A stretch of DNA of 64,000 bases from Candidatus Berkelbacteria bacterium RIFCSPLOWO2_01_FULL_50_28 (GTDB lineage Bacteria; Patescibacteriota; UBA1384; 2-12-FULL-50-11), in NCBI GenBank assembly GCA_001774395.1, contig MEZX01000002.1, positions 160,753 to 224,752 on the forward strand, in the 5' to 3' direction. A program made the position numbers and the translations under genes. The notes under the pieces were generated by a model that saw only the letters and a list, made by a program, of their open reading frames with translations, was not told the DNA's origin and searched no databases. Positions 16,007 to 33,369 of this stretch are shown here, piece after piece; the first letter of the stretch is position 1, and the number at the start of each line of letters is the position of its first letter.

Positions 16007-16007
16007 G

Positions 16008-16214: not shown

Positions 16215-16292
16215 TCTCGGGCAATAATTTATTGTAAAAAATGTGGCTCCGCCGTCTGCCAGTGATGACAGAGAGCGAAGCCGTTGGGAGAG

Positions 16293-17087: not shown

Positions 17088-17214
17088 GAATCCTCCGTTG
17101 CCAAGATTGGCAGAGAAATTGTACCAAGTAGTTGCCAGAAGATCAACCTGCTGGGTAACAAAAAAGCGACCCCTCCCCGTCTGGGAAGGAGCCGCGGTTA
17201 CCGCCGAAGGGCGG

Positions 17215-18669
17215 TTATGGGGCGAAGGCGATGTCCAGCCGGAGCTGGGTCTGGCCTCTGGAATGACCGGAGAGGAACTGACCGAGCCGGATCGATAAGG
17301 TCGTAGCACGACCTTTGATGTTGAGGATCGGACCGAGGAGGAACGTCGGCTTGTTGCCATCGCTGGCAAATGCCGCGCCGCCCAGCCCGTAGCTGAAGCT
17401 CTTGCCGGCACTCCAGGTCAGCCGGATGTTCGGAGCGAGGAAGCCGTTGTGCCCCTTCGCGTCCCGGGTAAAGTACACCGGGCCGGTCAAGGTTGCATTA
17501 CCAAGCTTGATCGCCGCGAATCCGCTGACACCGTAGCTGGTCAACTTGCCCGTGCCCGAGCAATCGGCGAACGGTCCGAGCGTCAGACTGCCGTTTAGCA
17601 ACTTCAGCTTGGTCACGTCCACTGCCAACTCGTAGACGGGGTGAGCTGACGAATAGCCGTAGATCGCGGCGTTTACACCTCCCTTGAACGTCAGGAACAG
17701 GTTTTCGGTGGCTGGCCCACCAACACTCAGATTCCGGCTGTAGTTGAGCTTCACGCGTTGGAGCACAAAGTTGTCGCCCGAGGCGTAAGCTTTGACCTGG
17801 CCAGCCATGACCATCAGCGTTCCGACGAGCGAAACGTAGACGGCCTGCTTGGCGTAGCCGAAGCGAACTCCGAAGCCGGCGTGACGCCAGCTCCCACCCC
17901 AGATGACCTTGAGCATTGCCCAGACCGTCTGCAGTGGTGAAACGGCGTCGAACCGACCCCGGCTGATAAGCTCCAGCACGTGTGTGCGCTTGGCTTCCCA
18001 GTCGATGCTGGTGTCTTCGTCTTCTCGGTAGCCGAGCTGGCGGATCTTGTCCATGAGCGAGCAGCTCTCGTGTGGCTTGTAGACTCCGAGGCCCACTCCC
18101 CAACACAGGCTAGCACCGACAAGCTCGAGCCATTCGGCACGAAACATAACTAGAAGCTGTCGGGGCGTGCGAGCCATCATTGCCAATCGCATCGCCAAGA
18201 TGAGAAAGGCGAGCGGGATGAACATGCACCCGATGACCAGTAAGCTGCCGATCGCTGCCCAGTCCATCCCGAGTGAGCCGTAACGTTGCTCCTGCTCTCT
18301 GGTGAGGTAGGCTGAAAGCCCGCCCATCACCGAACCGGGGATCTTGGTGATCGCGGCCAGCTGGGGTACGGAATCGTTGATGCCAACGGCGTGATCCATC
18401 CGCATTTCGATATCGCGGATGTCCAGAACGGTCTTGGCGTACTGCTCGCCGGTGAGCTCGCCCTTGGCCAGAGCGGCCGTGGCGATCTTGTTGATGCGCG
18501 CTGTGCCCTCCGGGGTGGAGAGCTGTTTCGCGACGTTGGCCGCTTCTCGCTCCTGATAATAGTTGTACCAACCCTTCAAGGGGAGGGCGGTTACGACGAA
18601 TGTGGCCACAATGAGCCACAGTAGCGCCGCGTAAACGGGGCGCTTCAACATACCTTCTGAACATTTCAT
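17215..18669 (-). CDS. Membrane protein (about 484 aa): N-terminal TM helices, beta-rich C-terminal half; GC-rich
   Basis: The start at MKCSEGMLKRPVYAALLWLIVATFVV is preceded by TAGGAGA. The C-terminus ...LRLDIAFAP. Confidence 0.55.
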   Translation of the reverse strand: MKCSEGMLKRPVYAALLWLIVATFVVTALPLKGWYNYYQEREAANVAKQLSTPEGTARINKIATAALAKGELTGEQYAKTVLDIRDIEMRMDHAVGINDSVPQLAAITKIPGSVMGGLSAYLTREQEQRYGSLGMDWAAIGSLLVIGCMFIPLAFLILAMRLAMMARTPRQLLVMFRAEWLELVGASLCWGVGLGVYKPHESCSLMDKIRQLGYREDEDTSIDWEAKRTHVLELISRGRFDAVSPLQTVWAMLKVIWGGSWRHAGFGVRFGYAKQAVYVSLVGTLMVMAGQVKAYASGDNFVLQRVKLNYSRNLSVGGPATENLFLTFKGGVNAAIYGYSSAHPVYELAVDVTKLKLLNGSLTLGPFADCSGTGKLTSYGVSGFAAIKLGNATLTGPVYFTRDAKGHNGFLAPNIRLTWSAGKSFSYGLGGAAFASDGNKPTFLLGPILNIKGRATTLSIRLGQFLSGHSRGQTQLRLDIAFAP

Positions 18670-19000
18670 GGTTTGCGTTCTCCTAAACTGAGAGGTTCGT
18701 GACTGAGCGGCAGGCCACTCAGTAGTCGGCGATAAACGCCTCCTAAAGCTTGCGACTTTGTCGCTCGCTATCGATGCGGGCATTGTAACAGTTAACGGGG
18801 GAAAGTCAAGATGTTAGGGGGTCTTTACAAATCTTGCGGTTAAAGAAGTGCGGCTTCGCCGATCTGCCACTTCTGACAGGGGGCGAGGCCGCAATGTGTG
18901 GTTTGGACGATCGGCTACCAGACTGCTGGCGGCGGCTGGTCGTCGGGTCGGTCCGATTGGGATGGTAGTTTGGACGCTGCCTCGGGGGTGTCGTCGTCGC

Positions 19001-19417
19001 CTAGGAAAAATTCGGTGATGAAAACTTGGTCCGAGCGCAAGCCGTAGACCAGGTGGCTGATGCCTTCAAGGATAACGCCGCTGATCTCGCTCCACTAGAC
19101 AGCTGGCGAGAACCCGATCCCGGGTAAGGTTCGATCCGGAGGTACTCTACGCCAGGCACGGTAGGTAACCACTTTACCAAACCCTGAGTGACGTCCATAG
19201 GACGACGACATGCATCGGGCGGATAAGCGATCCCGTCGCCTGGGCCTTCAACATCTAACGCCTGAACGTTGCTGATCATAGTGTTGACACAGCACTCGGC
19301 GTAGAACGGCACACCCGTCCGGAAGATCACTCTGATGCGTGGCGGGAGAATGACCACAGAGATTCTCAAGGTCGAACTTTCGCCCTGATCGCTGACGGAT
19401 TTGCTTCTTCGACTCAT
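19001..19417 (-). CDS. Hypothetical protein (about 138 aa); possibly a decayed gene
   Basis: Only this ORF is open in 18.8-19.5 kb; the sequence looks protein-like but there is no domain or good SD. Confidence 0.3.
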   Translation of the reverse strand: MSRRSKSVSDQGESSTLRISVVILPPRIRVIFRTGVPFYAECCVNTMISNVQALDVEGPGDGIAYPPDACRRPMDVTQGLVKWLPTVPGVEYLRIEPYPGSGSRQLSSGARSAALSLKASATWSTACARTKFSSPNFS

Positions 19418-19856
19418 CTCTGACCTCCTATGTGCACGGCCCGTTGGCCTCGCGGTCAGTATTGTCAAAGTAACTACTCTCGTCAAGAAAATGGGTCTCG
19501 CATGCGAGGCTTTGGCGTGATATTATCGAATTGCCTGTATGGGTACTCTTGGGAGGACTAATGCCTATGAATGTGCATCGGTTCCGCTGTTAGGGTCCGG
19601 ATTCCTCGGTGTTGCAGGGCAATCGCTCTGCGACGATACGTTCAGAGCGGCGGGTTGAAGGGATGCCCTCACCCGCCGCCGTACTTTTTCTGGGGGCTTA
19701 AATGGCAGGAAACTACGAATCTACACCGACAAAACGAAAGATGATGGCGGTGGGGATTCTTCTCTTTGTCGCCTTGGTCGTATTCGCTCGCGCGATGTCC
19801 GGCTAAGGCCTGATCCAAGCCTTGAGATGGCGGCCCGTGAAACGGCCGCCACATTT

Positions 19857-20369
19857 TTAGGCCGCCGAAACGTTTTCGAGGACGGCAACTTGGTCAAACG
19901 TTGGCGTATTAACGCTGTCTTTGAACACGACGTTCTCCGGAGTGATAGCGACGAGAAATTGTCGCGGTATCAGCCGTTCATTGAACAGTTTTCGGAGCGC
20001 AAAACGGACAATTATGCCGGAGCTTGAATCGAATATAACGTCACACACCCGGCCGAGCGGCGCGCCCGACTCGGTCCTGGCATTCACCCCTAGTACCGGA
20101 CCAGTGCGGTGTCCAATTTCTTCCAGCTCTTTTTGGGGCTCTTGGAGCGCTGTTTCGCCGTCAACAAACGCTGCGCGTCGGTCGAGCGAGAGGATGTCGG
20201 TATAAAGAAGATATTTTTTCTTGCGCGAGGCGATGGATGATCGTTTGCAAACACACGCCACTAAGCCAGCGTGGCGATTATCAAAAACGAGTCGTTGGAC
20301 GCTGCCAAGTAGCGTTCCTCGGCTACTGCGAACGTCTAACCCTAATACTGCGGTCGCCTCAATAACCAT
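19857..20369 (-). CDS. Putative PRC-barrel-domain protein (170 aa, two PRC-like halves)
   Basis: AVLGLDVRSSRGTLLGSVQRLVFDNRHAGLVA and GVNARTESGAPLGRVCDVIFDSSSGIIVRFAL resemble the PRC-barrel pattern. Confidence 0.45.
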   Translation of the reverse strand: MVIEATAVLGLDVRSSRGTLLGSVQRLVFDNRHAGLVACVCKRSSIASRKKKYLLYTDILSLDRRAAFVDGETALQEPQKELEEIGHRTGPVLGVNARTESGAPLGRVCDVIFDSSSGIIVRFALRKLFNERLIPRQFLVAITPENVVFKDSVNTPTFDQVAVLENVSAA

Positions 20370-20521
20370 GTACTTCTAGATTAGCAAAACTCTTGCCGCT
20401 ACTCTACAATAATTGTTAGGGAGGGAACACGTCTAAAGAGCGGCTTTACTTTCGTTATAAGGTTAAAGATGAACACGGCAAGACCCGCGCTGGTCGTGCG
20501 GCGGCGAGTAATGCCTCTCAA

Positions 20522-21634
20522 GTGCGGCGACTTCTGCAAGGGCGCGGCTACACAATAATTGGCATCGTTCAGGAAAAGGGCTTCTTCCAGAATCTGGCCC
20601 TTGGGAAAGTTTCCGCCAAAGATCGCTCTGTGATGTACAAGGAGCTGGCCACGATGCTAAAAGCCGGCGTCAGCATCACCCAGGCAATCGAGATCGTGGC
20701 CGAAACGCCGAACAAAAAATTACAGAAAGTGTTGCGAGAAGTATCGACCAGTTTGGAGAACGGCTTTCCGCTCTCAGTAGCGATGTCGGGGCATCCAAAA
20801 ATATTTCCTATCGTCGAAACAGGAGTGGTGCGAGCCGGTGAAGCAACCGGAAATTTAGTGAAGGTGCTCCAAGAGCTGGCCATCACTACCGAACGCTCGG
20901 CTAATTTTAGCGGCAAGGTGAAAGGCGCAATGATCTACCCGGCCTTTATTGTGGTGGTGATGATTGTGGTTGGAGCGATAATTCTGACCAAAGTTATCCC
21001 GCCGATCAAAGATATCTTCTCTACCCAGGGAGCGGAGCTACCGTTAAGTACGCGGATGCTTATCGCTATGGCAGAAGGGTTGATCAATTATTGGGGCTGG
21101 ATAATCTTGGCTGTCATTTTGTTCGTGGTCATAATCAAACTATTTCTCATTACCAAGCCGGGTAAACGAACCTCGAGCGTCTTGGCTCTGAACTTTCCGG
21201 TTTTTGGCACACTGATGCGCCAGGTTTACTTAGCGCAATTTAATCGGACGATGACGCTGCTGGTGGGTGCGGGCGTGCCAATTATTGAGGCGGTAGAAAT
21301 CGTGACGGACTCGACGACCAACGTCATCTTTCGTGACGCGCTAACTGGTTTAATGCACTCGTTGGAACAAGGCTCGCCAATTTCAGTCTCGCTACAAGGC
21401 AGTAAGTACTTCCCTAAGCTCATGACGCAGCTGCTATTTGTTGGTCAACAGTCGGGCGATTTAGGGGGGACGACCCAAACTCTGGCGGAGTATTTCGAAG
21501 GCGAGGTAGATGTAAAACTGCGAACGTTCTCGTCGCTTCTGGAGCCGTTTATTATTACTATTTTAGGGCTGGCGGTGGGGTTCATTATCGTCTCGGTGCT
21601 GCAACCGATTTACAATTTAAGCTCGGCAATCTAA
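20522..21634 (+). CDS. pilC: Type IV pilus / T2SS inner-membrane platform protein PilC (GspF family). The conserved N-terminus appears to extend upstream to about 20429 with no canonical start codon
   Basis: GspF-domain sequence (YKELATMLKAGVSITQAIEIV...). The in-frame upstream ...ERLYFRYKVKDEHGKTRAGRAAASNASQ matches PilC N-termini. It is preceded by TAG-GGAGGG-aac-ACG. Confidence 0.85.
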   Translation: MRRLLQGRGYTIIGIVQEKGFFQNLALGKVSAKDRSVMYKELATMLKAGVSITQAIEIVAETPNKKLQKVLREVSTSLENGFPLSVAMSGHPKIFPIVETGVVRAGEATGNLVKVLQELAITTERSANFSGKVKGAMIYPAFIVVVMIVVGAIILTKVIPPIKDIFSTQGAELPLSTRMLIAMAEGLINYWGWIILAVILFVVIIKLFLITKPGKRTSSVLALNFPVFGTLMRQVYLAQFNRTMTLLVGAGVPIIEAVEIVTDSTTNVIFRDALTGLMHSLEQGSPISVSLQGSKYFPKLMTQLLFVGQQSGDLGGTTQTLAEYFEGEVDVKLRTFSSLLEPFIITILGLAVGFIIVSVLQPIYNLSSAI

Positions 21635-21663
21635 GCTAAATGATGATGGGAGTACTACATTTG

Positions 21664-22554
21664 ATGGCAAAGCGACGGGGCTTTACACTCATTGAGATGC
21701 TGGTGGTTATTACCATCATTGGCATCCTTATTACCCTGATTGTTGGGGTGATCGGGCCGATACAGCGCAAGAGTCGCGATACCAAAAGAAAGTCGGAGAT
21801 CGCTCTGTTTCTGGGTGGCTTGAACGAATTCAAAGCCGATTTCAAGATTTACCCGAATTTCACCATGTACCTTGGCTCGTACGGCACTTCCGGTAACGGC
21901 GGCGAAAACTCTAACTTTGCTCTCTCCTCGACTATTCCGCAGTGCAACGGCTTGCCGGCTAACGCGGGGCAGACAGCCTCGTTTGCCGATTTGAGCTCGG
22001 TCTTTCCACCAACCACCACCCCAACAGCCGCCCAAATTGACGCTAATCCGGTTATCTTGAAAGAGGGGTCAGTTCTACCGGCTGGCTCGAGTTTCTCTTC
22101 GGTCAATCACTTCCTGGTGTGTTTGCGCTACTTAGACCGAGTTGTGGCTGATGTTAGTAAGACTGGCGCCTTGGGTTATCAGGTTAGATTCTCTTACGAT
22201 TTTTCAGACGTTTTGGTTAGTGCCGAAATGGAGAACGCCAGCGACCCGGACGCCAAGACGCTCTACAACGCCGCGGCGCCAAAACGCTATTACCAAGGTT
22301 CGGGGCTAAATATTCGTCAGCTAGACGAAGATAGCAATATCAGTAGCTTCTACTCCGGTTTATCGGGGACTATCAGCGACGGAATGTATCTGTATCAGTG
22401 CCTGAAAAAAGCCCTTCCAGCAGGAGAAGCGATAATAACCGATGACCGTTCTGGCTCCACTTACGATCCGATTATCTACTCTGGTAGCGCTTGGGCAAAA
22501 AATACTGCCTGTCAAGATGCTTCAGGAGGGCTGAATGTCGTCCGTGCGTACTAA
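21664..22554 (+). CDS. Prepilin-type (class III signal peptide) pilin/pseudopilin, about 296 aa
   Basis: MAKRRGFTLIEMLVVITIIGILITL (G|FTLIE prepilin peptidase site). Confidence 0.75.
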   Translation: MAKRRGFTLIEMLVVITIIGILITLIVGVIGPIQRKSRDTKRKSEIALFLGGLNEFKADFKIYPNFTMYLGSYGTSGNGGENSNFALSSTIPQCNGLPANAGQTASFADLSSVFPPTTTPTAAQIDANPVILKEGSVLPAGSSFSSVNHFLVCLRYLDRVVADVSKTGALGYQVRFSYDFSDVLVSAEMENASDPDAKTLYNAAAPKRYYQGSGLNIRQLDEDSNISSFYSGLSGTISDGMYLYQCLKKALPAGEAIITDDRSGSTYDPIIYSGSAWAKNTACQDASGGLNVVRAY

Positions 22555-23863
22555 AAAACGGTCCGGTTATTCCCTCATTGAGATGATGGTTGTTTTGGGG
22601 GTTATTGTGATGATCGGCATCGTTAGTCTGCCGAACATTTTTTCGCAGAACGAACGCGCCAGCCTGGACAGCAGCGCCCAGATGATCCGTCAGGTAATAA
22701 TTGACGCCTACACTCGATCGCTGGCGCCGACACGCAACGACGAATCTCGAACAGGGCAGATCTACCAAGTAGCGTTTGGCAACTTTATAACCGGTCAGCC
22801 GAAACAACAGGGCGAATTCTTCGAGGTCAGCGGTAATACCGGCACCAATAAGGTGTGGCTTGAACGGGGCCTGGCGCGCTGCGACTCTGGCGACGTACAG
22901 GGAGCGTTCTCGACTTTAAAGTCAATTACCCTGCCGCGCGGGATATTTGTCTCCAGCTTCTTTCCTAGTGATCAGCCTAACACCGAAGCAAAGTCGGTGA
23001 TCCGCTTTAGTGCTGGGGTAGAGGGCTTTCAATGCGGTAGCTACACCAAGCCCAACATCAAATCAGACAACTACCGCAACGATTTCGGATGGACTGGTGA
23101 GGATAAGAGCTTGAATCAAAAGGCCTACGCTCGTTACTTGGTAATTGAGCTTAGCGCCAACAAGATTCCCGAACACCGCTACGTTATTATGGACCGTCTA
23201 ACGAAAGAGGTTTCGGCGGTTAATTCCAACCCGCAGAGCTACTTTGCCTCGGATGGGGATAGCGCTGTACCGAAGTGGACGAGTATCAGTAACGATGACG
23301 ATATGACGCTTTCGATCGAGTGTCGAGCCAACGATGCCGATATGCTGCTGACCTTCAAACGGGCCGAAGATCGTCCTAGTGCCACCGAGAACCCCGATCC
23401 GAACCTAGCAGTTTACTACGACATCGACTGGGATTTGCATAACGGCTCTGGCTACGTGCCGCTTTCACTTAAATATTTCTACGATCTTGGCCGTAATGAG
23501 GTTAAGTTCAGTTTTACCACAACTGCCATGTCGGTTGCTTCTCGTCCCGCAAAAATTGGCATTCAGCTCAAAGCCCAGGACGAATTTGCAAATATGCAGC
23601 TGGAGAGCACTCCAGCCGATCCGCTACTACGCTGGTGGCAGAAAGATTTCATCCCTTCCTGCGGGGATCTGCCGGTAACAGAGGTGGAGGAATCCCCACC
23701 TAGCCCAATTCCACCGCAAGGTGACCCGGGCGGTGAAGCTCTGTCGTGCGGCCCGACTGCTTGGCAGCCGCACAATTGGCTTCTTGGTATTGCTTCAAAA
23801 CTTGGGTTGGTGGAGCGGACTTTTGCGCTTGTTGAAAGTGCATGTGACGATGTGGCGCTATGA
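22535..23863 (+). CDS. Prepilin-type minor pilin-like protein, 442 aa
   Basis: KRSGYSLIEMMVVLGVIVMIGIV; overlaps the upstream gene by 20 nt. Confidence 0.75.
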   Translation: MSSVRTKKRSGYSLIEMMVVLGVIVMIGIVSLPNIFSQNERASLDSSAQMIRQVIIDAYTRSLAPTRNDESRTGQIYQVAFGNFITGQPKQQGEFFEVSGNTGTNKVWLERGLARCDSGDVQGAFSTLKSITLPRGIFVSSFFPSDQPNTEAKSVIRFSAGVEGFQCGSYTKPNIKSDNYRNDFGWTGEDKSLNQKAYARYLVIELSANKIPEHRYVIMDRLTKEVSAVNSNPQSYFASDGDSAVPKWTSISNDDDMTLSIECRANDADMLLTFKRAEDRPSATENPDPNLAVYYDIDWDLHNGSGYVPLSLKYFYDLGRNEVKFSFTTTAMSVASRPAKIGIQLKAQDEFANMQLESTPADPLLRWWQKDFIPSCGDLPVTEVEESPPSPIPPQGDPGGEALSCGPTAWQPHNWLLGIASKLGLVERTFALVESACDDVAL

Positions 23864-24324
23864 TGAACACTAAACAACGCGGTTTTTCATTAATTGAGGT
23901 TCTTTTTGCCGTGTCGTTTTTGGTAATGGTGGGGGTAGCGATGGCAACGCTCAACGCTACCGCTAGTCGGTTGATTACTGGCACGGAAATCCGAGTGGAG
24001 GCCCAAGCGCTCAACGAACAGGCCCTAGCGTTCGTGGCGTTGCAAAGACGCACTATGGGCTCGGAATTTGCAACTAATTATTCTGGCTGTATCACTGGCA
24101 CAAAAGGGCCTAAAACTTGTTATGTATACTGTCCGCCAACACAGGTAGATGTCAGCTGCACCCTGACGCCGACCCGCAAGGCGACAACGCTTGGCATCAA
24201 CAAACTGCAATACGTTCCGTCTGTGCTCATTAAGACAACGGGTACAAAATATACTGTTATTGCTACTACCTCCTGGGGTAGCGGTATCAACCGTCAGATA
24301 ACGGCTAGCCAGCTGATCCAATGA
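23860..24324 (+). CDS. Prepilin-type minor pilin-like protein, 154 aa
   Basis: QRGFSLIEVLFAVSFLVMVGVAM; ATGA overlap with the upstream gene. Confidence 0.75.
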   Translation: MMNTKQRGFSLIEVLFAVSFLVMVGVAMATLNATASRLITGTEIRVEAQALNEQALAFVALQRRTMGSEFATNYSGCITGTKGPKTCYVYCPPTQVDVSCTLTPTRKATTLGINKLQYVPSVLIKTTGTKYTVIATTSWGSGINRQITASQLIQ

Positions 24325-25865
24325 GTCTTACAAGAAAAGGCAGTTTTACCCTCGTTGAGCTGATCGTTAGCGTCGCCTTGTTTATGGTTGCCATCACCGT
24401 GGCGCTTTACGCGACCGTTGGCACTCACGGTATCATTGCTCGCACGGAAGCTCGAGCGGTTGTGGCCGAGTCGAGTCGTTCGGTAAGCGACGCTATCCGG
24501 CGAATTACGGTTAACGCCCCAGTTGGGGGGATTGATTTGGTAGGCGGTCTGCAAAGCGGCGGCTATCCGGGTCTGCGCGCGCGGTCGTTTGCCAGCGGGG
24601 AATCGAGCAACATCTGTAGCATTATCGGCCGAGCCTTGGTTACCGTCGACAGTACGGGGAAAGAGCTTTTCGCCCTTGATCAAACGGGCTCAGCGATGGC
24701 GACTTGGATTTATGGCGTTGATGATGCCGGTCTCTGCCCAGCTCCTGGAACAAGCAGCCGTCTTCTCTTTCAAAATCGCCTGACCAACCGACAGACCAAG
24801 GTCACGAGCTTTTCGACGCAGCTACTCTCCATGAACTGTCAGAGCGGCTGTAGTACCAAGGAGCAGCTTCGTTATGTTCTGACTGTCGAAGAAAATACGG
24901 CCCTCGCTGGTCGGGCGTCGGAAACACGGCGGCCAAGCGTTCAGATTTCGGGTAGCGTCCCAATTGGATTAGTTGATGAGACTGTCGGCCTGCCGAACAT
25001 CGTGACGTCCGATCTGCCAGACGGTATCGTGGAAACAGCTTACAGCCAGACCTTAGTGGCGGGCGGCGGGACAACGCCGTACGCTTGGACACTGGTGTCT
25101 GGTGCACTGCCGAGCAATCTAACTCTCTCAAGCATCGGCGTAATCAGTGGCACGCCGCAAGCCGGCACGCAGGGTACTTACAATATCACCGTTCGGGTCA
25201 CTGACGATAACAGCAAAACCGATGATCAGTCCCTGATACTCCAAGTTAGCCCGGTTAACGGCGGTCCGCAACTGACCATTATAACTAACTCGCCGCTTAC
25301 TAATGGGACAGTAGGAACAGCTTACTCGGCCACGCTTCAAGGGGCTAATGGTAGCCAGCCGTATTCGTGGAGTAACCCGGGCGGCGGTTTACCAACTGGT
25401 CTAAGCCTAGCCTCTTCAACAGGCGTAATTAGCGGTACGCCAACGGTGGCTAACAACTACAGCTTCGTTATCCGCCTAACCGATAGCCAGCCGAGCTTTG
25501 TCGAGAAGACATTTAACATTCTGATTAGTGCGGGTAACCAACCGTTAACCATTACCACCACCTCCCCGCTGCCCAACGCCACGGCAACTTGTGCGTATTC
25601 ACAGCAGCTCTCAGCTACTGGAGGAACTCCGGGTTACAGCTGGGCTTTCGACGGTGTTTTGCCAATTCAACTTTCCTGGCTATCTATCAGTGCGGGAGGC
25701 CTACTAACTGGAACACCAACGATGGCAGGCGGGCCGTACACCTTTAGTGTACAAGTAACAGATTCGGGTACTCCAGTACCTGGTACCCAAACCAAGAGCT
25801 TCAACCTAACAATCGACCCGCTGTTGATGTCCTGTGGGGGCACTGGGGAAGAAGAGTTAGGATGA
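24321..25865 (+). CDS. Prepilin-type pseudopilin carrying four tandem putative-Ig (He_PIG/dystroglycan-type) repeats, 514 aa
   Basis: N-terminal KGSFTLVELIVSVALFMVAITV, then 4 units of about 95 aa (...PY.W.....LP.GL.L.S.TGVISGTP.......F.V.VTD...). Confidence 0.75.
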   Translation: MSLTRKGSFTLVELIVSVALFMVAITVALYATVGTHGIIARTEARAVVAESSRSVSDAIRRITVNAPVGGIDLVGGLQSGGYPGLRARSFASGESSNICSIIGRALVTVDSTGKELFALDQTGSAMATWIYGVDDAGLCPAPGTSSRLLFQNRLTNRQTKVTSFSTQLLSMNCQSGCSTKEQLRYVLTVEENTALAGRASETRRPSVQISGSVPIGLVDETVGLPNIVTSDLPDGIVETAYSQTLVAGGGTTPYAWTLVSGALPSNLTLSSIGVISGTPQAGTQGTYNITVRVTDDNSKTDDQSLILQVSPVNGGPQLTIITNSPLTNGTVGTAYSATLQGANGSQPYSWSNPGGGLPTGLSLASSTGVISGTPTVANNYSFVIRLTDSQPSFVEKTFNILISAGNQPLTITTTSPLPNATATCAYSQQLSATGGTPGYSWAFDGVLPIQLSWLSISAGGLLTGTPTMAGGPYTFSVQVTDSGTPVPGTQTKSFNLTIDPLLMSCGGTGEEELG

Positions 25866-28800
25866 CGACAAAAGGTAGCTCCGGCTCGGTGCTACTGCTC
25901 ACAGTGATGGTCCTGGCGGTTTTGACCACGACGACTTTCGGGGCGATCGCCGTGCGTTTTGATCAGCTTGCCGCAACGGATAAATTAACCAACTCAGCGG
26001 TTGCTAAACTGGCCGCTGACTCGGGTCTAGCCCAGCTGCGTGATAAGTTGATCAACAATCAGCCGGTCAGCCAGGCCTACTCTTACAACATCGAAACAGC
26101 CCAAGAGAATCAGATAGCCACAACCGCCGGCTATCGACCGAACCCCAGATCGTCGTACGCCACCTACGAACCAGCCAAAACTTCGCTGCCGCGCTGTATC
26201 GCCGCCGCCGTGCTGGATCCTTGGGTAAACAGCGGCAAGTATCTGTCGAAAGACGTTGCCAGCCCAACGCTAATTTTCTACTACGCCAACATCGTTAACG
26301 ACACGCCGTTGGGTATACTGCCAGCCAACGCGAACCTTTCAGTGAACGACAAGAAGATTCCGATCTCCGACGTCACCAGTATGGGTCACTTTTACAATCC
26401 GTTCGCGCCGTTGAACGCTACCCAAGATTCGCCCAGCTACTGGACGATCAAACTCGGTGGGCCGGACGACCAGTTCTTGACCCAGAAGGCCTCAAACAAC
26501 GTCGACTCGCTTTTCCGCGGCCTTGACGTCCTCTATAGCTATTATCTGCCCAGGCTGACTGACTCGGGTATCGCCGCGGGCGGCTCCCAGACGGGGTTAG
26601 ATCGAATTGATAGTGCTGATCTTACCGGTTTATTTGAAGACACGATTCGCAATAATAACTTCAAAGTTTGGCTTGACGCCTCAATTTCCGATACTTATCT
26701 CTACCAGTACGGATTAGGCGATCTGTTTGTTGCGAATTCGCAGTACCGCATAAAGTGGATGCAGCCCTCGCTCTGGAACGACTTGCCAGAAGCGGATGTG
26801 GCTGTGCCTTATAAATCAGACGATCTGGGCGCCTCGACGGTCTCGTGGACAAAGAAAGGCTTGCCGCTCCTGACGCCAGGAGCAGACATCGGCGGTTGGG
26901 GGGTATCTATCTTACGCGGCGCTTCTTCGTTTTCGTTTGTGCGCTTGAGCAGTGCCAGTAACGGCGTTGCTTTTAGCCCCGGTCAGACCATCGACGGGTT
27001 TGTTTACGGCGGCCTTGACGGTCTGCGGCTCAATTCACGCCTCAGCCTGCAGCTATTTACCAAAGTTGGCGGTCACGTCTCTTTGAAAAGTCGCGCTCAG
27101 GACCAAGGGAAACTTTACGGGGCTACCGTTACTCAGATTGGATCGGTCACTGCGCAAAATATCGCCATTAAGTTAAAACTAAGCAGCAACGACTACGAGA
27201 CGCCGACGCTCTCCTATTCCAGTGCTTACCCGACCGGCTCAATGATCGGCACAATCGCCTTGCTTGCCGCGCCGCAGTTCTCGACTAACAAGTCTCTCTC
27301 CTCGGCGACAGTCAAGGCCGATGGGGACGGCATAAATGCCAACATTACGGTGCAGAGTAACGGTAACTGCGTTGCTGTCGCGGGCAGCTTTACCGCCTGT
27401 CCGGCGGTGGGGGATCTTATCGGCCTGTCAAAATCTGGCCAAGATCCGCTTTGGGGGATGGTTGAGACGGTTAGTTTTACTGGTACAAACCTCGGTAGTT
27501 TTACGATAGACAAATTGCGACGGGGGCCAAAACCTACCCGCCATCAAGCAGTGACGTACTATACAGCCAACTCTAACCCGCGTATCGCCTACTTCGGCGG
27601 CGCGATCGATATGAACGATTACGACGGCGGTTACGCTTCAGAGAGTGCGGAACTGTGGATTTACGACCCAGAAGGCGACAGTTGGAGCTATCCGAATAAC
27701 CCTGGTGGCACGCCACCGGGACCGCGCGCCGGCGCTTCGATGGTCTACGATAACGTCAACGGTCGCTTGGTGGTTGTTGGTGGCTACTATCACGAGGCAG
27801 TGACTCCCGATGCCAACCCGGCCTTTGACTGTGAGATTAGCCAGCAGTCGTGCTTGTACACTAACCGGCCTCATTTTCGTATCGCCAAACGAATAGTTAA
27901 CGACGTCTATGCCTACAATATCGCCGGTAATTCCTGGGAGAAGATGAACTACACCTTTACCGGCGCGGCCCAAAAGATTGAGAACGGTGTCACCTACACC
28001 GCTCGAGTGGTCTCAACGCTGGCCAATCGAAGCGGGTTAGAAGGCTGGCGCCAGACGACGCTGATGGAGAACGCCTCGCCGCAGACTATCAACATTAACG
28101 GCGCGGCGACTAATATTGTTGTTAAGCCGTCCGCGGCCGGGCTGGCAATCGGGGACGAGCTGTATCTTTCCGGAAAGCTCACCGTTAGCGCCGCCTCATT
28201 CACTGCCTGGGGGAGGATAACCGGCATCAATTACGCCGCCAACAGTATCACCGTTACCGTGCGCGGCTATAAAAAAGCTGCTCCCACCGATCCAAACACA
28301 GTGACACTGAGTGATCTTTCGATGCAGGTCTTAAGTCGTCTCGGAAACGGCAACGGTCAAACTTGTACAGGAGTTGTTACTACCTCTTACTCTTGCAATT
28401 TCAGTAATATCACTGGTTTTGCCGTTGGCGACCAAGTGGTTCTGGAGAGATATGTTGGATCAGAAAATTTAACAGATGTTTTAAGCGGTTTTATCAGCTA
28501 CACCTCGGGTACGTCAGCCTATTTTGTGGCCGACGAACGCGACAGCGCCATCTTAGATTTCGCCGATCAGTCTCTGGGTCGCCCTAGCGGCGGCACGGCC
28601 GTCGCCTTCCCTGTTGGGCGTTACGGGGCAACGCTTGGGCAGGATCCAACTGCTGGCGACACAGATAAAGCGCTGTTGTATCAAGGGGCGTCGAAGAATT
28701 TTGCTGCTAATTTGCGTTTTAACGATGTCTGGCAGGCCAAATTCAACGCTGGCACTGGCACCGGCAGTATTGCCTGGACGCTGTTCAATTTGCAGAATCC

Positions 28801-30964
28801 CCAAGGGCCGAATACCGATTCTGGATACTATATTCAGAATATCCGTTCGTCGTACTTTGCTAATGTCTTCACAAGCTCCGTTGCGGCCGAGAACCCGGGG
28901 ATGGTCAAAGACTTGGATTACACCGATCCGCGGACTGAACAGCACTATGTAGCGTGGGATGAGACTAAAAACTGGACTTTGAAACTCGACACGACGGGGC
29001 AGGAGAGTCTATCCAGCGGCCAACTTGTGCCAGGCGCCCAGATTATTATTGAGCGCCAGAGCTTGGTTGCTGACGGAGCTCAGCCGCGCGGTCGTGAAGT
29101 TTTCCACGGTTACATCGTCAGTAACTTTGGCGGCTCTTATGACAGCACCAAGATAGTGGTGCGCCACAACCCGTCTTACGCCGACGACAAAGGTCTGCTC
29201 GGAGATTCAGCCGCTTCTAAAATCTCTATCTATTCCTATCTGCCAACGACCGCCCCGATCCGTAAACAGAGCGATTCGAACTGGCTAACCGCCGCGTGGG
29301 ACGGGACAACGAAGAGTTTCACTGTTAGCTCAAGCGACATCAACCTTAACGAAATCCCACCAGTTGGAGCTCTGATTCAATCCTGGAAAAACCCCAACAG
29401 CAGTGCCACGATCGATGCGACGCTCTTTGTGGTGAAGGGCCGTACTTACAGCTACAACCTCGGGGCGCATCAGTTCCGATTCGATGTGGATACCATCAAG
29501 CTCTCCACGCCTCTCCCAATTGCCTTCGGTAGCAACCAGGTGGTCGGAGATGCTAATAGTGCCCGGGTTATGTCGCTTGGTGATCAAAATATGCCTTGGG
29601 ACAGCTGGGCTGCACCGGACTGGGCGACAGACGCTTCTGCCAATAATCGCTGGGTTATCCGTCGTTCTGCCACGGGAAACCCGGGTTACGCGCCAGGTCC
29701 GCGCCAAGCAGCCGCTCTAGGGTCGTATTTCGATGGCACAAATTCGCAACTCTATATGGCTGGGGCTAGCTTCGGTCCGACGTCGACAGTTTGGAAAAAA
29801 TCCAACGCTGGCAAGACTACTTATACTAGCGACACTGCCTGGTCGTTTCTCAAGACATCGCCGAACAACGACAACGGTTTACCCAGTTTGTGGGGCTCCT
29901 CGATGATTGTTTACCGGTTCAATAGCCAAACAAAAGCGGTTTATTTCAACGGTAAGTTGAAGTACGACAACGGCCGTAACGATTACGGTCGCACCGTTGG
30001 GGCTCGTATCTTGGGGCGGCCGGACTTGAATCGCTGGGGAACCGAATCCAACGGCGGTTACCAGAACAGTGACAATACTTTTTATCTGGACGACACTAGC
30101 TCAACGCTTGATTCGGCCGGGTTTGTTAGTAGTATTTACAACAACTTCCCCACAACCGCTCCAACATCGGTCAAAGATAGTTTTCGCCTCAAGGGATACG
30201 GAATTACGCCAACATCGCAAGGCGGTTGGAGCACCGGCAAAGCGGTCTGCCCGTACTTGGGTCAGAAATGCGACGGCGGTAACGATTACAGCCCGCTTTT
30301 GGGCAGCCTGGGAACGCTCGGCCGCAGCTCCAGTAACAGCAGCGCCTACGGCGGCTACGGTTGGGGCTCGAGTCGAGCGGTTCTGAACCCTGGTTCGGCA
30401 TTCTTGAGCCAAGGTGGCAACGCGAGCGCGATTCTCTCCGGGCCAACATTCTCTGGCAACATCACCAACGGTCGTTGGGAGCAGGACGGTTACGCACCGT
30501 ATCTCTGTGACTCGCAAGTCGGCTGCGGCAATTACTATCAATCGAACTACGGCTCGCTGGCAACTAATTTCCAGAGCGATAAGACGATAATGTTTGCTGG
30601 TTACACTAAACTGATCGGCGGCGGTAAGGGCGGAGCGATTCTGGTCACGCCAGCCGGCGTCGGCACAGGGTTTCTAACCAAATCCGGCATACTTGGTGGC
30701 GCGAGTGATCGTTGGTACTCGTACTGCGCCGCCAGCGACACTACTGTTGATGGCAGCGATAACTACACCTGTAACACCAAAGCAACGCGCTATTTGCCCT
30801 GGTTGCCGGACATCGAAGATATGCTTTTCCTGATGAACGCCGCGGTAAAGTTGGCCTCGGCCGACAGCTACAAAGTCACCGGTTACTACGGCAACGCCCG
30901 TCGGGCCTATATTGTCACTTCCGTTACCGGCGAAGATGCGAAGGTTCAGGAAATAACGCCGTAA
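25862..30964 (+). CDS. Giant pilus-associated protein (1700 aa) with a PilX-like N-terminal TM segment; Gly/Thr/Asn-rich, beta-rich. A putative tip adhesin by analogy to PilY1
   Basis: MTTKGSSGSVLLLTVMVLAVLTTTTFGAIAV; 4-nt overlap with the preceding pseudopilin; no catalytic motifs seen. Confidence 0.8.
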   Translation: MTTKGSSGSVLLLTVMVLAVLTTTTFGAIAVRFDQLAATDKLTNSAVAKLAADSGLAQLRDKLINNQPVSQAYSYNIETAQENQIATTAGYRPNPRSSYATYEPAKTSLPRCIAAAVLDPWVNSGKYLSKDVASPTLIFYYANIVNDTPLGILPANANLSVNDKKIPISDVTSMGHFYNPFAPLNATQDSPSYWTIKLGGPDDQFLTQKASNNVDSLFRGLDVLYSYYLPRLTDSGIAAGGSQTGLDRIDSADLTGLFEDTIRNNNFKVWLDASISDTYLYQYGLGDLFVANSQYRIKWMQPSLWNDLPEADVAVPYKSDDLGASTVSWTKKGLPLLTPGADIGGWGVSILRGASSFSFVRLSSASNGVAFSPGQTIDGFVYGGLDGLRLNSRLSLQLFTKVGGHVSLKSRAQDQGKLYGATVTQIGSVTAQNIAIKLKLSSNDYETPTLSYSSAYPTGSMIGTIALLAAPQFSTNKSLSSATVKADGDGINANITVQSNGNCVAVAGSFTACPAVGDLIGLSKSGQDPLWGMVETVSFTGTNLGSFTIDKLRRGPKPTRHQAVTYYTANSNPRIAYFGGAIDMNDYDGGYASESAELWIYDPEGDSWSYPNNPGGTPPGPRAGASMVYDNVNGRLVVVGGYYHEAVTPDANPAFDCEISQQSCLYTNRPHFRIAKRIVNDVYAYNIAGNSWEKMNYTFTGAAQKIENGVTYTARVVSTLANRSGLEGWRQTTLMENASPQTININGAATNIVVKPSAAGLAIGDELYLSGKLTVSAASFTAWGRITGINYAANSITVTVRGYKKAAPTDPNTVTLSDLSMQVLSRLGNGNGQTCTGVVTTSYSCNFSNITGFAVGDQVVLERYVGSENLTDVLSGFISYTSGTSAYFVADERDSAILDFADQSLGRPSGGTAVAFPVGRYGATLGQDPTAGDTDKALLYQGASKNFAANLRFNDVWQAKFNAGTGTGSIAWTLFNLQNPQGPNTDSGYYIQNIRSSYFANVFTSSVAAENPGMVKDLDYTDPRTEQHYVAWDETKNWTLKLDTTGQESLSSGQLVPGAQIIIERQSLVADGAQPRGREVFHGYIVSNFGGSYDSTKIVVRHNPSYADDKGLLGDSAASKISIYSYLPTTAPIRKQSDSNWLTAAWDGTTKSFTVSSSDINLNEIPPVGALIQSWKNPNSSATIDATLFVVKGRTYSYNLGAHQFRFDVDTIKLSTPLPIAFGSNQVVGDANSARVMSLGDQNMPWDSWAAPDWATDASANNRWVIRRSATGNPGYAPGPRQAAALGSYFDGTNSQLYMAGASFGPTSTVWKKSNAGKTTYTSDTAWSFLKTSPNNDNGLPSLWGSSMIVYRFNSQTKAVYFNGKLKYDNGRNDYGRTVGARILGRPDLNRWGTESNGGYQNSDNTFYLDDTSSTLDSAGFVSSIYNNFPTTAPTSVKDSFRLKGYGITPTSQGGWSTGKAVCPYLGQKCDGGNDYSPLLGSLGTLGRSSSNSSAYGGYGWGSSRAVLNPGSAFLSQGGNASAILSGPTFSGNITNGRWEQDGYAPYLCDSQVGCGNYYQSNYGSLATNFQSDKTIMFAGYTKLIGGGKGGAILVTPAGVGTGFLTKSGILGGASDRWYSYCAASDTTVDGSDNYTCNTKATRYLPWLPDIEDMLFLMNAAVKLASADSYKVTGYYGNARRAYIVTSVTGEDAKVQEITP

Positions 30965-31190
30965 GTGAAGGACTGCGCCCTCAAACCAATTTTTGTGGGG
31001 AGGAGGCTCCCACACCTTTTTTGCAGAGGACAAGGGGCCTACTTGCGAAGCGGCCCCCTATCCTCTGCACTCCAACCCCTGCCCGCTTCACCTTAGCGGC
31101 GGACAAGGTGAAAAACCGCTCACGGACCTGCTGTGGGTCAGGCTCGCGGTTTTTCGGTATTGATAAGCGGGATACACTGTCGGTTTTCGA

Positions 31191-33233: not shown

Positions 33234-33369
33234 GGGGGCGAACGGGTTCGACAGAGACCCAAGTGCGTGGTTAGGGCGTGGTAGCCCAACTCGGAAAAAC
33301 GGCTCAAGAAAGACCGAGCATCACGTAGCAAGTCTTTGGAACTGGGTTCGATTCCCAGCGCCTCCACCA
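33234..33369 (+). ncRNA. ssrA: Miniature tmRNA (ssrA)-like RNA: canonical tmRNA 5' and 3' tRNA-like halves only about 136 nt apart; no identifiable tag reading frame or pseudoknots
   Basis: 5' GGGGGCGAACGGGUUCGACAGAGACCCAAGUGCG resembles B. subtilis GGGGACGUUACGGAUUCGACAGGGAU. 3' GGAACUGGGUUCGAUUCCCAGCGCCUCCACCA resembles GGACGUGGGUUCGACUCCCACCGUCUCCACCA. A G3-U70 pair is present and CCA is encoded. Confidence 0.5.

What the first reader, a model, noticed from the sequence alone, without database searches (positions are those of the whole stretch)
20420..30964. Type IV pilus operon: PilC, four prepilin-like genes (one with four He_PIG/Ig repeats) and a 1700-aa PilX-N-like giant protein
The genes are overlapping and co-directional: pilC, then pilins of 296, 442, 154 and 514 aa, each with a G|F(S)(T)LIE class III signal, then a 1700-aa protein with a pilin-like TM N-terminus. 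The arrangement parallels minor-pilin/PilY1 tip-adhesin operons but on a much larger scale. The 514-aa pseudopilin carries four roughly 95-aa putative-Ig repeats (..PY.W..LP.GL.L...G.ISGTPT.). That is an adhesin-like decoration unusual on a pilin. No pilB, pilT, pilM-Q or prepilin peptidase gene is in the window
Basis: partly seen in the sequence, partly recalled or inferred. Interest (0 to 1): 0.6.

Follow-up and report, generated by a model that had tools for sequence, protein, structure and literature searches.

The report
Berkelbacteria pilus operon with giant tip protein
This is a conserved gene cluster of an uncultured ultra-small bacterium (Candidatus Berkelbacteria) that encodes the membrane platform, the main subunit and four accessory subunits of a type IV pilus, the last being a 1700-residue protein that most likely sits at the pilus tip as the adhesin for another cell.

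Summary
Six co-directional, mostly overlapping genes (20420-30964, + strand) encode PilC/GspF, four prepilins with class III signals, and a 1700-aa protein. Corrections: the 514-aa pilin has three He_PIG repeats, not four. pilC has no canonical start before 20522 and probably starts at ACG 20429.

The window is from Candidatus Berkelbacteria. The whole operon, plus a divergent PRC-barrel gene, is syntenic in all 12 other distinct genomes/contigs examined, including a sister clade. The gene order matches gspF-G-H-I-J-K and comGB-GG. pil1 resembles major pilins. The giant lacks Glu5, like the capping subunits GspK/PilX.

AlphaFold models give the giant a 57-residue N-terminal helix followed by a beta-sheet, then beta-sandwiches and a Kelch-type beta-propeller. 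There is no significant sequence or fold match to GspK, PilX or PilY1.

The best reading is a pilus structural operon whose capping minor pilin is fused to a large adhesin module. The closest described analogue is PilX2 of Saccharibacteria TM7x. He_PIG on pilins is already a frequent modular-pilin architecture. I rate it a new variant of a known kind, of moderate interest. No pilB, pilT, pilD or pilMNO lies in the window.

The parts
19857..20369 (-). PRC-barrel protein (170 aa), divergent from pilC. A possible accessory or regulatory partner; its function in the system is unknown.
   Evidence: Pfam PRC, E 1e-7. It sits in the same divergent position next to pilC in every locus that reaches upstream of pilC, including sister clade L015, while other neighbours differ.
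20381..20410 (+). Promoter-like site (TTAGCA-18-TACAAT) upstream of pilC.
   Evidence: Consensus scan, 9 of 12 matches. The scan found no more sites than shuffled sequence gives, so this is weak evidence on its own.
20429..21634 (+). pilC/gspF-type platform protein (about 401 aa). Probable ACG start 3 nt after the SD GGGAGGG (20419-20425). The frame is open from 20420; the first canonical start is GTG 20522.
   Evidence: T2SSF x2, 178 bits. GspF and PilC NCBIfam models score 225-281 bits, below the equivalog cutoffs. It is 100% identical to a 'partial' protein of Candidatus Berkelbacteria bacterium RIFCSPHIGHO2_12.
21640..22554 (+). pil1: large prepilin (304 aa, or 296 aa from Met9; about 290 aa mature). 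Candidate major pilin (GspG/PilA/ComGC slot).
   Evidence: N_methyl 35 bits. TIGR02532 above cutoff; GspG hit over aa 13-73. Its profile matches solved major pilins (Geobacter PilA, M. xanthus PilA 8tj2, Thermus PilA4, GspG 5wda) over 60-106 residues, E 6e-9 to 2e-5. hhalign to E. coli GspG gives 96.8% probability. Four invariant Cys.
22535..23863 (+). pil2: 442-aa prepilin (G|YSLIE), in the GspH/FimU/ComGD slot by position.
   Evidence: N_methyl 21.0 bits, just under the cutoff. The motif is conserved in orthologues. Profile hits to solved pilins cover the N-terminal helix only. There is no Pfam domain in the remaining ~400 aa.
23860..24324 (+). pil3: 154-aa prepilin (G|FSLIE), in the GspI/PilV/ComGE slot by position and size.
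   Evidence: Weak sub-threshold hits to PilV (TIGR02523, E 0.0016), XpsI and GspJ. The length is almost constant (148-182 aa ORFs) across loci. No PDB profile hit.
24321..24965 (+). pil4 N-terminal pilin module (aa 1-215; KGS|FTLVE), in the GspJ/PilW/ComGF slot by position.
   Evidence: N_methyl E 3e-4. Weak GspJ (E 0.019) and Verru_Chthon cassette protein C hits. The module is conserved in all loci, and it is the entire protein in L012 and L014 (210 and 228 aa).
24984..25820 (+). pil4 C-terminal extension: three He_PIG (putative Ig) repeats, at aa ~222-312, ~313-405 and ~406-500.
   Evidence: PF05345, 124 bits, 3 stretches. Motif at aa 273, 368 and 460. The copy number is 0-3 in orthologues. 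L001 and L011 carry other, unassigned extensions.
25862..26881 (+). Giant protein aa 1-340: short leader, hydrophobic N-terminus without Glu5, a long alpha1 helix (aa 8-64), then a beta-meander and a conserved alpha/beta module. Proposed pilin-like 'carrier' module (GspK/PilX slot).
   Evidence: AF2 model m5408bcf9a64f: helix 8-64, strands 72-121, pLDDT ~80 for aa 50-100. This stretch holds most of the protein's best-conserved 50-aa blocks. A profile search of 1.84 billion representatives finds only this giant family. No PilX_N or GspK match.
26882..27511 (+). Giant protein aa 341-550: beta-sandwich region.
   Evidence: Model A strands 343-549, pLDDT 80-95. Only weak, generic beta-sandwich Foldseek hits, E >= 0.07.
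27512..30001 (+). Giant protein aa 551-1380: Kelch-type beta-propeller interleaved with small beta-domains carrying a recurrent (A/P)(V/I)GD motif. Proposed ligand-binding head.
   Evidence: Kelch Pfam hits at aa 555-697. PDB profile hits to Kelch proteins. AF2 model md094fc0f82c3, pTM 0.80, mostly pLDDT >80 here. Foldseek hits to Kelch propellers (FBXO42, KLHDC2, GlxA), E 1e-7, probability 1.0. Motif positions 515, 762, 854, 1057 and 1167. aa 900-1450 is the most variable stretch.
30002..30964 (+). Giant protein aa 1381-1700: C-terminal region of uncertain fold with a strongly conserved last ~50 aa (..PD.ED..F..NAA...Y.V.GYYG..R.Y.V..).
   Evidence: Lower model confidence, pLDDT 40-80. Conservation rises again at aa 1501-1550 and 1651-1700. 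The C-terminal motif is kept even in distant homologues P0050, P0051 and P0053.
30994..31024 (+). Terminator-like stem-loop and T-run 30 nt after the giant's stop codon.
   Evidence: Pattern scan. The number of such sites in the region does not exceed shuffles, so only the position supports it.

Best explanation
This is the structural operon of a type IV filament, most likely an adhesive type IV pilus, of Candidatus Berkelbacteria.

Proposed roles:
- PilC is the inner-membrane platform.
- pil1 is the major subunit.
- pil2, pil3, pil4 and the giant are the counterparts of the four core minor pilins (PilH-I-J-K / GspH-I-J-K / ComGD-GG). These assemble first, prime polymerisation and stay at the tip.
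- The giant takes the capping (K) position. It has a short basic leader, a small residue and then a hydrophobic helix without Glu5, so nothing needs to dock above it. Its remaining ~1640 residues (about 270 of conserved globular module, then beta-sandwiches, a Kelch-type propeller with inserted beta-domains and a C-terminal region) project from the tip as the ligand-binding head.
- pil4 adds 0-3 He_PIG Ig-like modules just below the tip.

The pilus would tether the ultra-small cell to a partner or host cell or a surface polymer. The ATPases, alignment proteins and prepilin peptidase are encoded elsewhere.

Shown here: gene content and order, class III signals, conservation, lack of Glu5, predicted secondary structure and the propeller fold.

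Inferred: H/I/J/K assignments (from position, size and Glu5 only), tip location, the adhesin role, and pil1 as the major pilin.
For: Domains and motifs: T2SSF, N_methyl, He_PIG, Kelch.

Conserved class III signals on pil1-4, and a conserved Glu5-less hydrophobic N-terminus on the giant. L13, the +5 position, is >=90% conserved across 37 sequences.

Translationally coupled overlaps.

Strict synteny of PRC|pilC-pil1-pil2-pil3-pil4-giant in 10 GTDB species representatives and further contigs, and in a sister clade where pilC is only 48-53% identical.

The order is the same as E. coli gspF-G-H-I-J-K. The published rule is that HIJK-type minor pilins form a tip complex capped by a subunit lacking Glu5 (PMC10191384).

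pil1 resembles major pilins and GspG over 60-106 residues.

Giant models: helix 8-64 plus a beta-meander; Kelch propeller with pTM 0.80 and Foldseek probability 1.0.

The conservation pattern (N-terminal and C-terminal modules conserved, aa 900-1450 variable) fits a fixed carrier with a diversifying binding head.

Experimental analogue: TM7x PilX2 is a minor pilin without a PilD-type signal that carries a beta-propeller, and it is needed for host binding. The TM7x T4P-2 pilin locus is also separate from its machinery locus (PMC12206443).
Against: No HMM, profile-profile or fold match ties the giant's N-terminal module to PilX_N, GspK or any solved pilin. PilX_N scores E 2.7 in one homologue only. 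hhalign to GspK gives 7.6% probability. The best Foldseek E-value is 0.07.

The H/I/J identities of pil2-4 are not established by sequence.

No extension ATPase, PilM/N/O or prepilin peptidase lies in the 64-kb window or within 10 kb of the operon in related genomes.

The first 50 residues of the model have a pLDDT of only 47-59.

A 290-residue major pilin would be unusually large.

There are no expression or localisation data.
Confidence: 0.68

Rival explanations
1. The giant is not a pilus subunit. It is a signal-anchored or Sec-secreted cell-surface adhesin that is merely co-transcribed with the pilins. On this view the pilus tip complex consists of pil2-4 only, or interacts with the giant non-covalently as with PilY1.
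For: There is no significant PilX_N, GspK or pilin match by HMM, profile or fold. Glu5 is absent. CPR genomes are rich in giant surface proteins (PMC8080830). A second Kelch-rich ORF of >1800 aa with an ordinary-looking signal peptide lies at window 1-5419.
Against: There is a 4-nt ATGA overlap with pil4, and the giant has a fixed position as the last gene of the set in every genome. The modelled N-terminal helix is 57 residues long, not a ~20-residue anchor, and a beta-sheet follows it. The leader/small-residue/hydrophobic pattern is conserved, and lack of Glu5 is the expected state of a capping subunit. The N-terminal 350 aa is among the best-conserved parts of the protein.
Confidence: 0.17
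2. The operon builds a short pseudopilus or a competence (Com-type) DNA-uptake filament rather than an adhesive pilus. The large modules would then bind DNA or cargo.
For: The order platform-major-four minors is exactly that of gspF-K and comGB-GG. The best NCBIfam score of PilC is to GspF. DNA uptake through pili and ComEC is thought to be central in CPR (PMC6744442).
Against: CPR cells lack an outer membrane and PilQ, so a classical T2SS has no role. Ig-like He_PIG modules and Kelch propellers are typical ligand/protein/glycan-binding modules, not known DNA receptors. The closest experimental analogue, TM7x PilX2, acts in host binding. No com genes are adjacent.
Confidence: 0.1
3. All five pilin-like genes are minor pilins (a fimU-pilVWX-pilE-like set), and the true major pilin is encoded elsewhere with pilB, pilT and pilD.
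For: pil1 is ~290 aa when mature, far larger than most major pilins. The machinery genes are clearly elsewhere. Other CPR genomes carry several small pilins next to pilB-pilT-pilC-pilD (L016).
Against: pil1 has the longest and strongest similarity to major pilins and GspG, 60-106 residues. It is the most conserved of the pilins, at 48-52% identity. It sits directly after pilC, as gspG and comGC do. M. xanthus PilA (208 aa, 8tj2) shows that large major pilins exist.
Confidence: 0.2

Closest known systems
PilX2 and the T4P-2 pilin locus of Nanosynbacter lyticus TM7x (Saccharibacteria; Grossman et al. 2025, PMC12206443)
   Same: Both are Patescibacteria. Both have a pilin locus separate from most machinery genes. 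Both have a minor pilin with a non-canonical (non-PilD-type) N-terminus fused to a C-terminal beta-propeller, proposed as a PilY1-like adhesin. In TM7x, deletion halves host binding.
   Different: The TM7x propeller has RCC1 repeats, whereas this one is Kelch-type with inserted beta-domains and extra beta-sandwiches. The Berkelbacteria protein is 1700 aa. No sequence relationship was detected: a profile search of 1.84 billion representatives found only the giant family itself. Here pilC is part of the pilin operon.
GspH-I-J-K / PilH-I-J-K (FimU-PilV-W-X) / ComGD-GG core minor-pilin tip complex
   Same: There are four minor pilins after the major one, in the same gene order as gspF-G-H-I-J-K. 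The last is the largest and lacks Glu5, as the capping subunit does. GspK also carries an extra domain on its pilin fold.
   Different: No statistically supported homology of pil2, pil3, pil4 or the giant to H, I, J or K. The sizes are 1.2 to 5 times larger: 442, 154, 514 and 1700 aa against 169, 125, 195 and 327 aa in E. coli.
PilY1 / PilC tip adhesins of type IVa pili
   Same: Both are large (>1000 aa) tip-associated proteins with a beta-propeller, encoded at the end of the minor-pilin operon and thought to mediate adhesion.
   Different: PilY1 is not a pilin and has its own propeller family (IPR008707). The giant shows no hit to that family, has a Kelch-type propeller, and carries its own pilin-like N-terminal helix. 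In function it is 'PilX plus PilY1 in one chain'.
Modular type IV pilins (S. sanguinis PilB/PilC, CofB, ComZ; Raynaud et al. 2021, PMC8179133)
   Same: A small pilin module carries grafted binding modules. PF05345 (He_PIG) is one of the 15 most common grafts, and several examples come from CPR lineages. pil4 fits this class exactly.
   Different: The survey required an IPR012902 motif, and its most extreme case was 860 aa. The giant lacks that motif and is twice as long.

Membership tests
Type IV pilins (class III signal peptide, PF07963/TIGR02532) | A short basic leader ending in Gly/Ala/Ser, then F/Y at +1, Glu at +5 and ~20 hydrophobic residues. | tested here: met
   pil1-4 have the motif in the window and it is conserved in 10 orthologous loci. 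pil1 is above the Pfam and TIGRFAM cutoffs. pil2-4 are at or just below the cutoff (19.5-21.0 bits against 21.2).
Type IV pilins (class III signal peptide, PF07963/TIGR02532) | Long alpha1 helix followed by a beta-sheet globular domain (lollipop fold). | tested here: inconclusive
   The pil1 profile aligns with solved major pilins over 60-106 residues. The giant's model shows helix 8-64 plus four strands, but there is no Foldseek match to pilins.
Type IV pilins (class III signal peptide, PF07963/TIGR02532) | Cleavage and N-methylation by a prepilin peptidase (PilD/GspO). | not testable with these tools
   No Peptidase_A24 gene lies in the window or within 10 kb of the operon in relatives.
PilC/GspF platform protein (PF00482 x2) | Two T2SSF domains plus an N-terminal cytoplasmic domain. 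| tested here: met
   T2SSF, 178 bits, 2 stretches. The N-terminal domain sequence lies upstream of the first canonical start. Orthologues carry PF28597 T2SSF_N. The equivalog cutoffs for GspF, PilC and ComGB are not reached, so the subtype is undetermined.
GspK / PilX capping minor pilin (PF14341 PilX_N, T2SS protein K) | Hydrophobic pilin-type N-terminus lacking Glu5. | tested here: met
   G/A|S[AIV]LLLT[VI]M; the +5 position is Leu in >=90% of 37 sequences. The distant homologues have (K/R)G(S/T)xL(L/V)(I/L)TLLIVTLM.
GspK / PilX capping minor pilin (PF14341 PilX_N, T2SS protein K) | Significant sequence match to the PilX_N or GspK models. | tested here: not met
   No Pfam or NCBIfam hit at E <= 0.1. 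PilX_N scores E 2.7 in one homologue only, and there is none in the distant homologues. hhalign against E. coli GspK gives 7.6% probability.
GspK / PilX capping minor pilin (PF14341 PilX_N, T2SS protein K) | Fold similarity to solved GspK or PilX structures. | tested here: not met
GspK / PilX capping minor pilin (PF14341 PilX_N, T2SS protein K) | Last gene of a G-H-I-J-K-type pilin series following the platform gene. | tested here: met
   Order pilC-pil1-pil2-pil3-pil4-giant, compared with gspF-G-H-I-J-K in E. coli K-12. It is conserved in all related loci.
PilY1 / PilC tip adhesin (IPR008707 beta-propeller) | C-terminal PilY1-type propeller domain. | tested here: not met
   Only Kelch families hit the giant at E <= 0.1. 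The Foldseek top 50 are Kelch and other propellers, with no PilY1.
He_PIG putative Ig domain (PF05345) | Match above the Pfam gathering score. | tested here: met
   124 bits against a cutoff of 24, three stretches.
Kelch-type beta-propeller | Kelch repeat matches and a propeller fold. | tested here: met
   Kelch_4 27.5/21.6, Kelch_3 23.0/22 and Kelch_1 21.7/20.1 bits. PDB profile hits to Muskelin and KLHDC2, E 1e-8 to 1e-5. Foldseek probability 1.0 to FBXO42 and KLHDC2.
Complete type IV pilus machine | Extension ATPase (PF00437) and PilM/N/O-type alignment proteins in the same genome. | not testable with these tools
   They are absent from the 64-kb window and from +/-10 kb around the operon in relatives. 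The literature reports a near-universal core T4P set in CPR. Another CPR contig (L016) shows the usual pilB-pilT-pilC-pilD cluster.

The most novel reading that the evidence does not exclude
The 1700-aa protein is a true type IV pilin, and the largest yet seen. Its conserved N-terminal module (aa 1-340) and conserved C-terminal ~50-200 aa may together form the pilin 'carrier'. The ~1300 residues between them, a Kelch propeller with an extra beta-domain inserted between blades, would then be a giant insertion analogous to the alpha-domain inserted in GspK. The variable stretch (aa 900-1450) would be the host-specificity determinant of Berkelbacteria, a lineage whose hosts are unknown. That would make partner identification directly testable with the recombinant head domain.
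Probability: 0.25. Interest if true: 0.6.

Novelty: new variant of a known kind. Interest (0 to 1): 0.45.

Why it matters
Type IV pili are thought to be the main organ by which ultra-small Patescibacteria find and hold their partner cells. An experimentally supported tip-adhesin candidate exists only for Saccharibacteria so far.

This operon gives Berkelbacteria a concrete candidate. It is a clade-specific family, annotated everywhere as 'hypothetical protein', that appears to combine the capping minor pilin and a PilY1-like adhesin in one 1700-residue chain, with a second optional Ig-module array on the neighbouring minor pilin.

If correct, it extends the 'modular pilin' principle to about twice the size of the largest case in the 2021 modular-pilin survey (860 aa). 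It also supplies a defined protein, with a variable region, with which to look for the unknown hosts or ligands of this lineage.

Tried and rejected
(1) Pfam and NCBIfam scans of the giant, its first 100 and 540 aa, and distant homologues, looking for PilX_N, GspK or PilY1. Nothing was significant.

(2) PDB sequence-profile searches. The giant gives only Kelch hits. pil3 and pil4 give nothing. pil2 gives the N-terminal helix only.

(4) hhalign of each operon protein against E. coli K-12 GspG-K. Only pil1 and pil2 matched, both to GspG, and only over the N-terminal helix. Specific H/I/J/K orthology is therefore not demonstrated.

(5) A word-indexed homologue search with the pil4 pilin module returned only 2 hits. 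Orthologues were taken from syntenic loci instead.

(6) Locating pilB, pilT and pilD in a Berkelbacteria genome. The tools give only +/-10 kb around permitted proteins. PilC homologues revealed no paralogous pilB-linked pilC assignable to Berkelbacteria.

(7) An enzyme reading of the Kelch domain (galactose-oxidase/GlxA-like) was rejected. No His, Tyr or Cys set is invariant in the propeller region.

(8) A BLAST self-comparison found no sequence-level internal repeats in the giant. The giant is not a paralogue of the second Kelch giant at 1-5419.

Full report
1. OBSERVATION

The ORF map confirms six co-directional genes on the + strand:
- a PilC/GspF gene, with the frame open from 20420, the first canonical start at GTG 20522 and the stop at 21634
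- pil1, 21640-22554 (304 aa)
- pil2, 22535-23863 (442 aa)
- pil3, 23860-24324 (154 aa)
- pil4, 24321-25865 (514 aa)
- a 1700-aa ORF, 25862-30964

The junctions are a 5-nt gap followed by overlaps of 20, 4, 4 and 4 nt.

Pfam gives T2SSF (178 bits), N_methyl on all four pilins (pil1 above the cutoff, pil2-4 just below it), and He_PIG (124 bits, three stretches) on pil4. The giant has only Kelch-family hits, at aa 555-697. NCBIfam agrees. It adds a GspG-like hit for pil1 and weak sub-threshold PilV/GspI/GspJ-like hits for pil3 and pil4. It finds nothing for the giant.

Two details of the finding are wrong. First, there are three He_PIG repeats, with the G[VL][IL][ST]GTP motif at aa 273, 368 and 460, not four. 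Second, 20420 is the position after an in-frame stop, not a start codon.

A promoter-like site (20381-20410) and a terminator-like hairpin (30994-31024) bracket the operon. Such sites are not enriched over shuffles.

No pilB, pilT, pilM-Q or pilD is present among the window's other ORFs.

2. ORGANISM AND CONSERVATION

PilC is 100% identical to a 'partial hypothetical protein' of Candidatus Berkelbacteria bacterium RIFCSPHIGHO2_12.

The giant has 39 full-length or near full-length homologues (31-46% identity, 1500-1760 aa). All are unnamed or 'hypothetical protein', and all come from Berkelbacteria or Patescibacteria MAGs.

The same layout was found in every case: two contigs looked up by protein, ten GTDB species representatives and a sister clade. 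The layout is a divergent PRC-barrel gene, then pilC, pil1, pil2, pil3, pil4 and the giant, confirmed by tblastn. Genes further out differ between genomes.

PilC homologues fall into three tiers: 57-73% identity (Berkelbacteria), 48-53% (sister clade with the same operon, L015) and <=38% (other CPR). A contig from that last tier shows the usual CPR cluster pilB-pilT-pilC-pilin-pilD-pilins. The Berkelbacteria arrangement, with pilC detached from the ATPases and heading the pilin operon, is therefore a lineage feature.

3. THE PILINS

The class III signals are conserved across orthologues: pil1 G/A|FTLIE, pil2 G/A/S|Y[ST]L[IV]E, pil3 G/A/S|FS[LI][IM]E, pil4 G/S/A|FTL[IVM]E.

pil1 is the best candidate for the major subunit:
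- Its profile aligns with solved major pilins (Geobacter PilA, M. xanthus PilA 8tj2, Thermus PilA4) and GspG over 60-106 residues, E 6e-9 to 2e-5.
- hhalign to E. coli GspG gives 96.8% probability.
- It is the most conserved pilin and has four invariant cysteines.
- It follows pilC directly, as gspG follows gspF.

pil2-4 match known pilins only in the N-terminal helix or not at all.

The pil4 pilin module (~215 aa) is constant, but its C-terminal extension is not:
- none in L012 and L014 (210 and 228 aa)
- one He_PIG stretch detected in L006 and two in L010 (411 and 396 aa from the motif)
- three in the window, L003 and L007 (L005: two He_PIG stretches plus a PKD-like third)
- extensions with no Pfam hit in L001 and L011

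The Ig array is therefore an optional, evolving decoration. A survey of modular pilins already lists PF05345 among the 15 most frequent grafted modules, with many CPR examples (PMC8179133). This feature is typical, not unusual.

4. THE GIANT

Its N-terminus is a short, usually basic leader, then a small residue, then S[AIV]LLLT[VI]M... with Leu at +5. Three distant homologues (E 1e-7 to 1e-11) have (K/R)G(S/T)xL(L/V)(I/L)TLLIVTLM. This is the pattern of the Glu5-less capping pseudopilins.

It remains a motif-level resemblance. PilX_N scores E 2.7 in one homologue only. hhalign to E. coli GspK gives 7.6% probability. A profile of aa 1-340 searched against 1.84 billion representative proteins finds only 27 sequences, essentially the giant family itself.

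Two AlphaFold models were built from the 37-sequence alignment.

Model of aa 1-550 (pLDDT 74.5): a helix from 8 to 64, then strands at 72-121, an alpha/beta region to ~312 and a beta-sandwich at 340-550. By secondary structure this is a pilin-like lollipop with additions. Foldseek finds no PDB match better than E 0.07.

Model of aa 541-1700 (pLDDT 78.5, pTM 0.80): almost all-beta. It matches Kelch propellers (FBXO42, KLHDC2, GlxA) at E ~1e-7 and probability 1.0, with low TM-scores because extra beta-domains interrupt the propeller. A recurrent (A/P)(V/I)GD motif marks five such inserted domains. In distant homologues, Kelch motifs are spread from ~575 to ~1290.

No His/Tyr/Cys constellation is invariant in the propeller. 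A galactose-oxidase-like enzyme is therefore unlikely.

Conservation is highest in aa 1-350, 551-650 and the last 200 residues. It is lowest in aa 900-1450. This is the pattern expected for a fixed assembly module carrying a diversifying binding surface.

5. MECHANISM

The published rule is that the core minor pilins (PilHIJK, GspHIJK, ComGD-GG) form a tip-located priming complex capped by a subunit lacking Glu5 (PMC10191384). Combined with the identical gene order in E. coli gspF-G-H-I-J-K, the simplest model is:
- PilC = platform
- pil1 = major pilin
- pil2, pil3 and pil4 = the H-, I- and J-position subunits
- the giant = the K-position cap

The giant's ~1640 extra residues would form the tip adhesin, with pil4's Ig modules just beneath.

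The closest experimental analogue is Saccharibacteria TM7x. Its PilX2 is a minor pilin without a PilD-type signal, fused to a beta-propeller, and it is required for normal host binding. Its pilin locus is also separate from the machinery locus (PMC12206443).

Shown here: gene content, motifs, synteny and predicted folds. Inferred: the H/I/J/K assignments, tip location and adhesin function.

6. RIVALS

(a) The giant is a co-transcribed but independent surface adhesin. No pilin homology is detectable, and another Kelch giant with an ordinary signal peptide lies at 1-5419. Against this stand the coupling, the fixed position, the 57-residue helix and N-terminal conservation.

(b) The operon builds a Com- or T2SS-like short filament for DNA uptake or secretion. 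The gene order is the same. The binding modules and the TM7x precedent favour adhesion.

(c) All five are minor pilins and the major pilin lies elsewhere. pil1's size supports this. Its major-pilin-like alpha1 and its position argue against it.

7. NOVELTY

T4P in CPR, modular pilins and propeller-bearing PilX-like adhesins are all described. The Berkelbacteria family itself is not: every database name is 'hypothetical', and the literature searches I ran turned up only the TM7x case.

It is about twice the size of the largest modular pilin in the 2021 survey (860 aa). It has no detectable sequence relatives outside its own clade. I therefore rate it a new variant of a known kind, of moderate interest.

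8. SIDE OBSERVATIONS

These are listed separately: a probable ACG (and CTG) start codon for pilC, a 136-nt mini tmRNA-like gene, a second giant Kelch protein, the conserved PRC-barrel neighbour, an intein in DnaE and a GC-rich orphan region.

Noticed in passing
window 20419-20431 (and L001 ~4940-4953, L018 ~367-378): pilC appears to start at a non-canonical codon. The conserved PilC N-terminus (FRYKVKD...) lies upstream of the first ATG, GTG or TTG. At the codon just after the SD GGAGGG, orthologues carry ATG (L003, L005, L006, L007), TTG (L011-14, L020), CTG (L010, L019) or ACG (window, L001, L018). Gene callers truncate the ACG/CTG versions: 326-379-aa calls that lack T2SSF_N, and one 'partial' in NCBI.
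   Followed up: partly
window 33234-33369 (+); L001 16936-17074: A 136-nt tmRNA-like gene (Rfam RF00023, 65 bits; 72 bits in L001). It has a complete tRNA-like domain (G3-U pair, CCA end) but only ~50 nt where the model has 282 positions (tag ORF and pseudoknots). ARAGORN does not call it. It is conserved in a second Berkelbacteria genome. No convincing tag reading frame was found.
   Followed up: partly
window 1-5419 (-): A second giant ORF (>1806 aa, running off the left end) with many Kelch motifs and an N-terminus that looks like a Sec signal (..RRGVALLSVFIILVTLGYSPSSFA|AN). It is not a close paralogue of the operon's giant: the only match is a 122-aa Kelch stretch, E 0.008.
   Followed up: partly
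window 19857-20369 (-): A PRC-barrel protein gene lies divergent from pilC in every related locus that reaches upstream of pilC, including the sister clade, while other flanking genes vary. This suggests a functional link to the pilus operon, of unknown nature.
   Followed up: partly
window 47018-51610 (-): The DNA polymerase III alpha subunit (1530 aa) is interrupted by an intein with an endonuclease-like insert (Intein_splicing, Phage_endo_I and NUMOD3 hits). The orthologue in L003 is 1162 aa without these domains.
   Followed up: no
window 16293-19500 (-): A GC-rich stretch (0.57-0.58 against ~0.50 around it) holds two orphan ORFs (372 and 522 aa; membrane or lipoprotein-like N-termini) with no Pfam hit. 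It is absent from the corresponding position in L001 and L003, so it may be an insertion.
   Followed up: no
L016 (Logan SRR28401757 contig, 237 kb), 7144-16385: A canonical CPR pilus cluster, pilB-pilT-pilC-pilin-x-pilD-four pilins, from another Patescibacteria lineage (PilC 37% identical). It is useful as a contrast to the detached Berkelbacteria operon.
   Followed up: no
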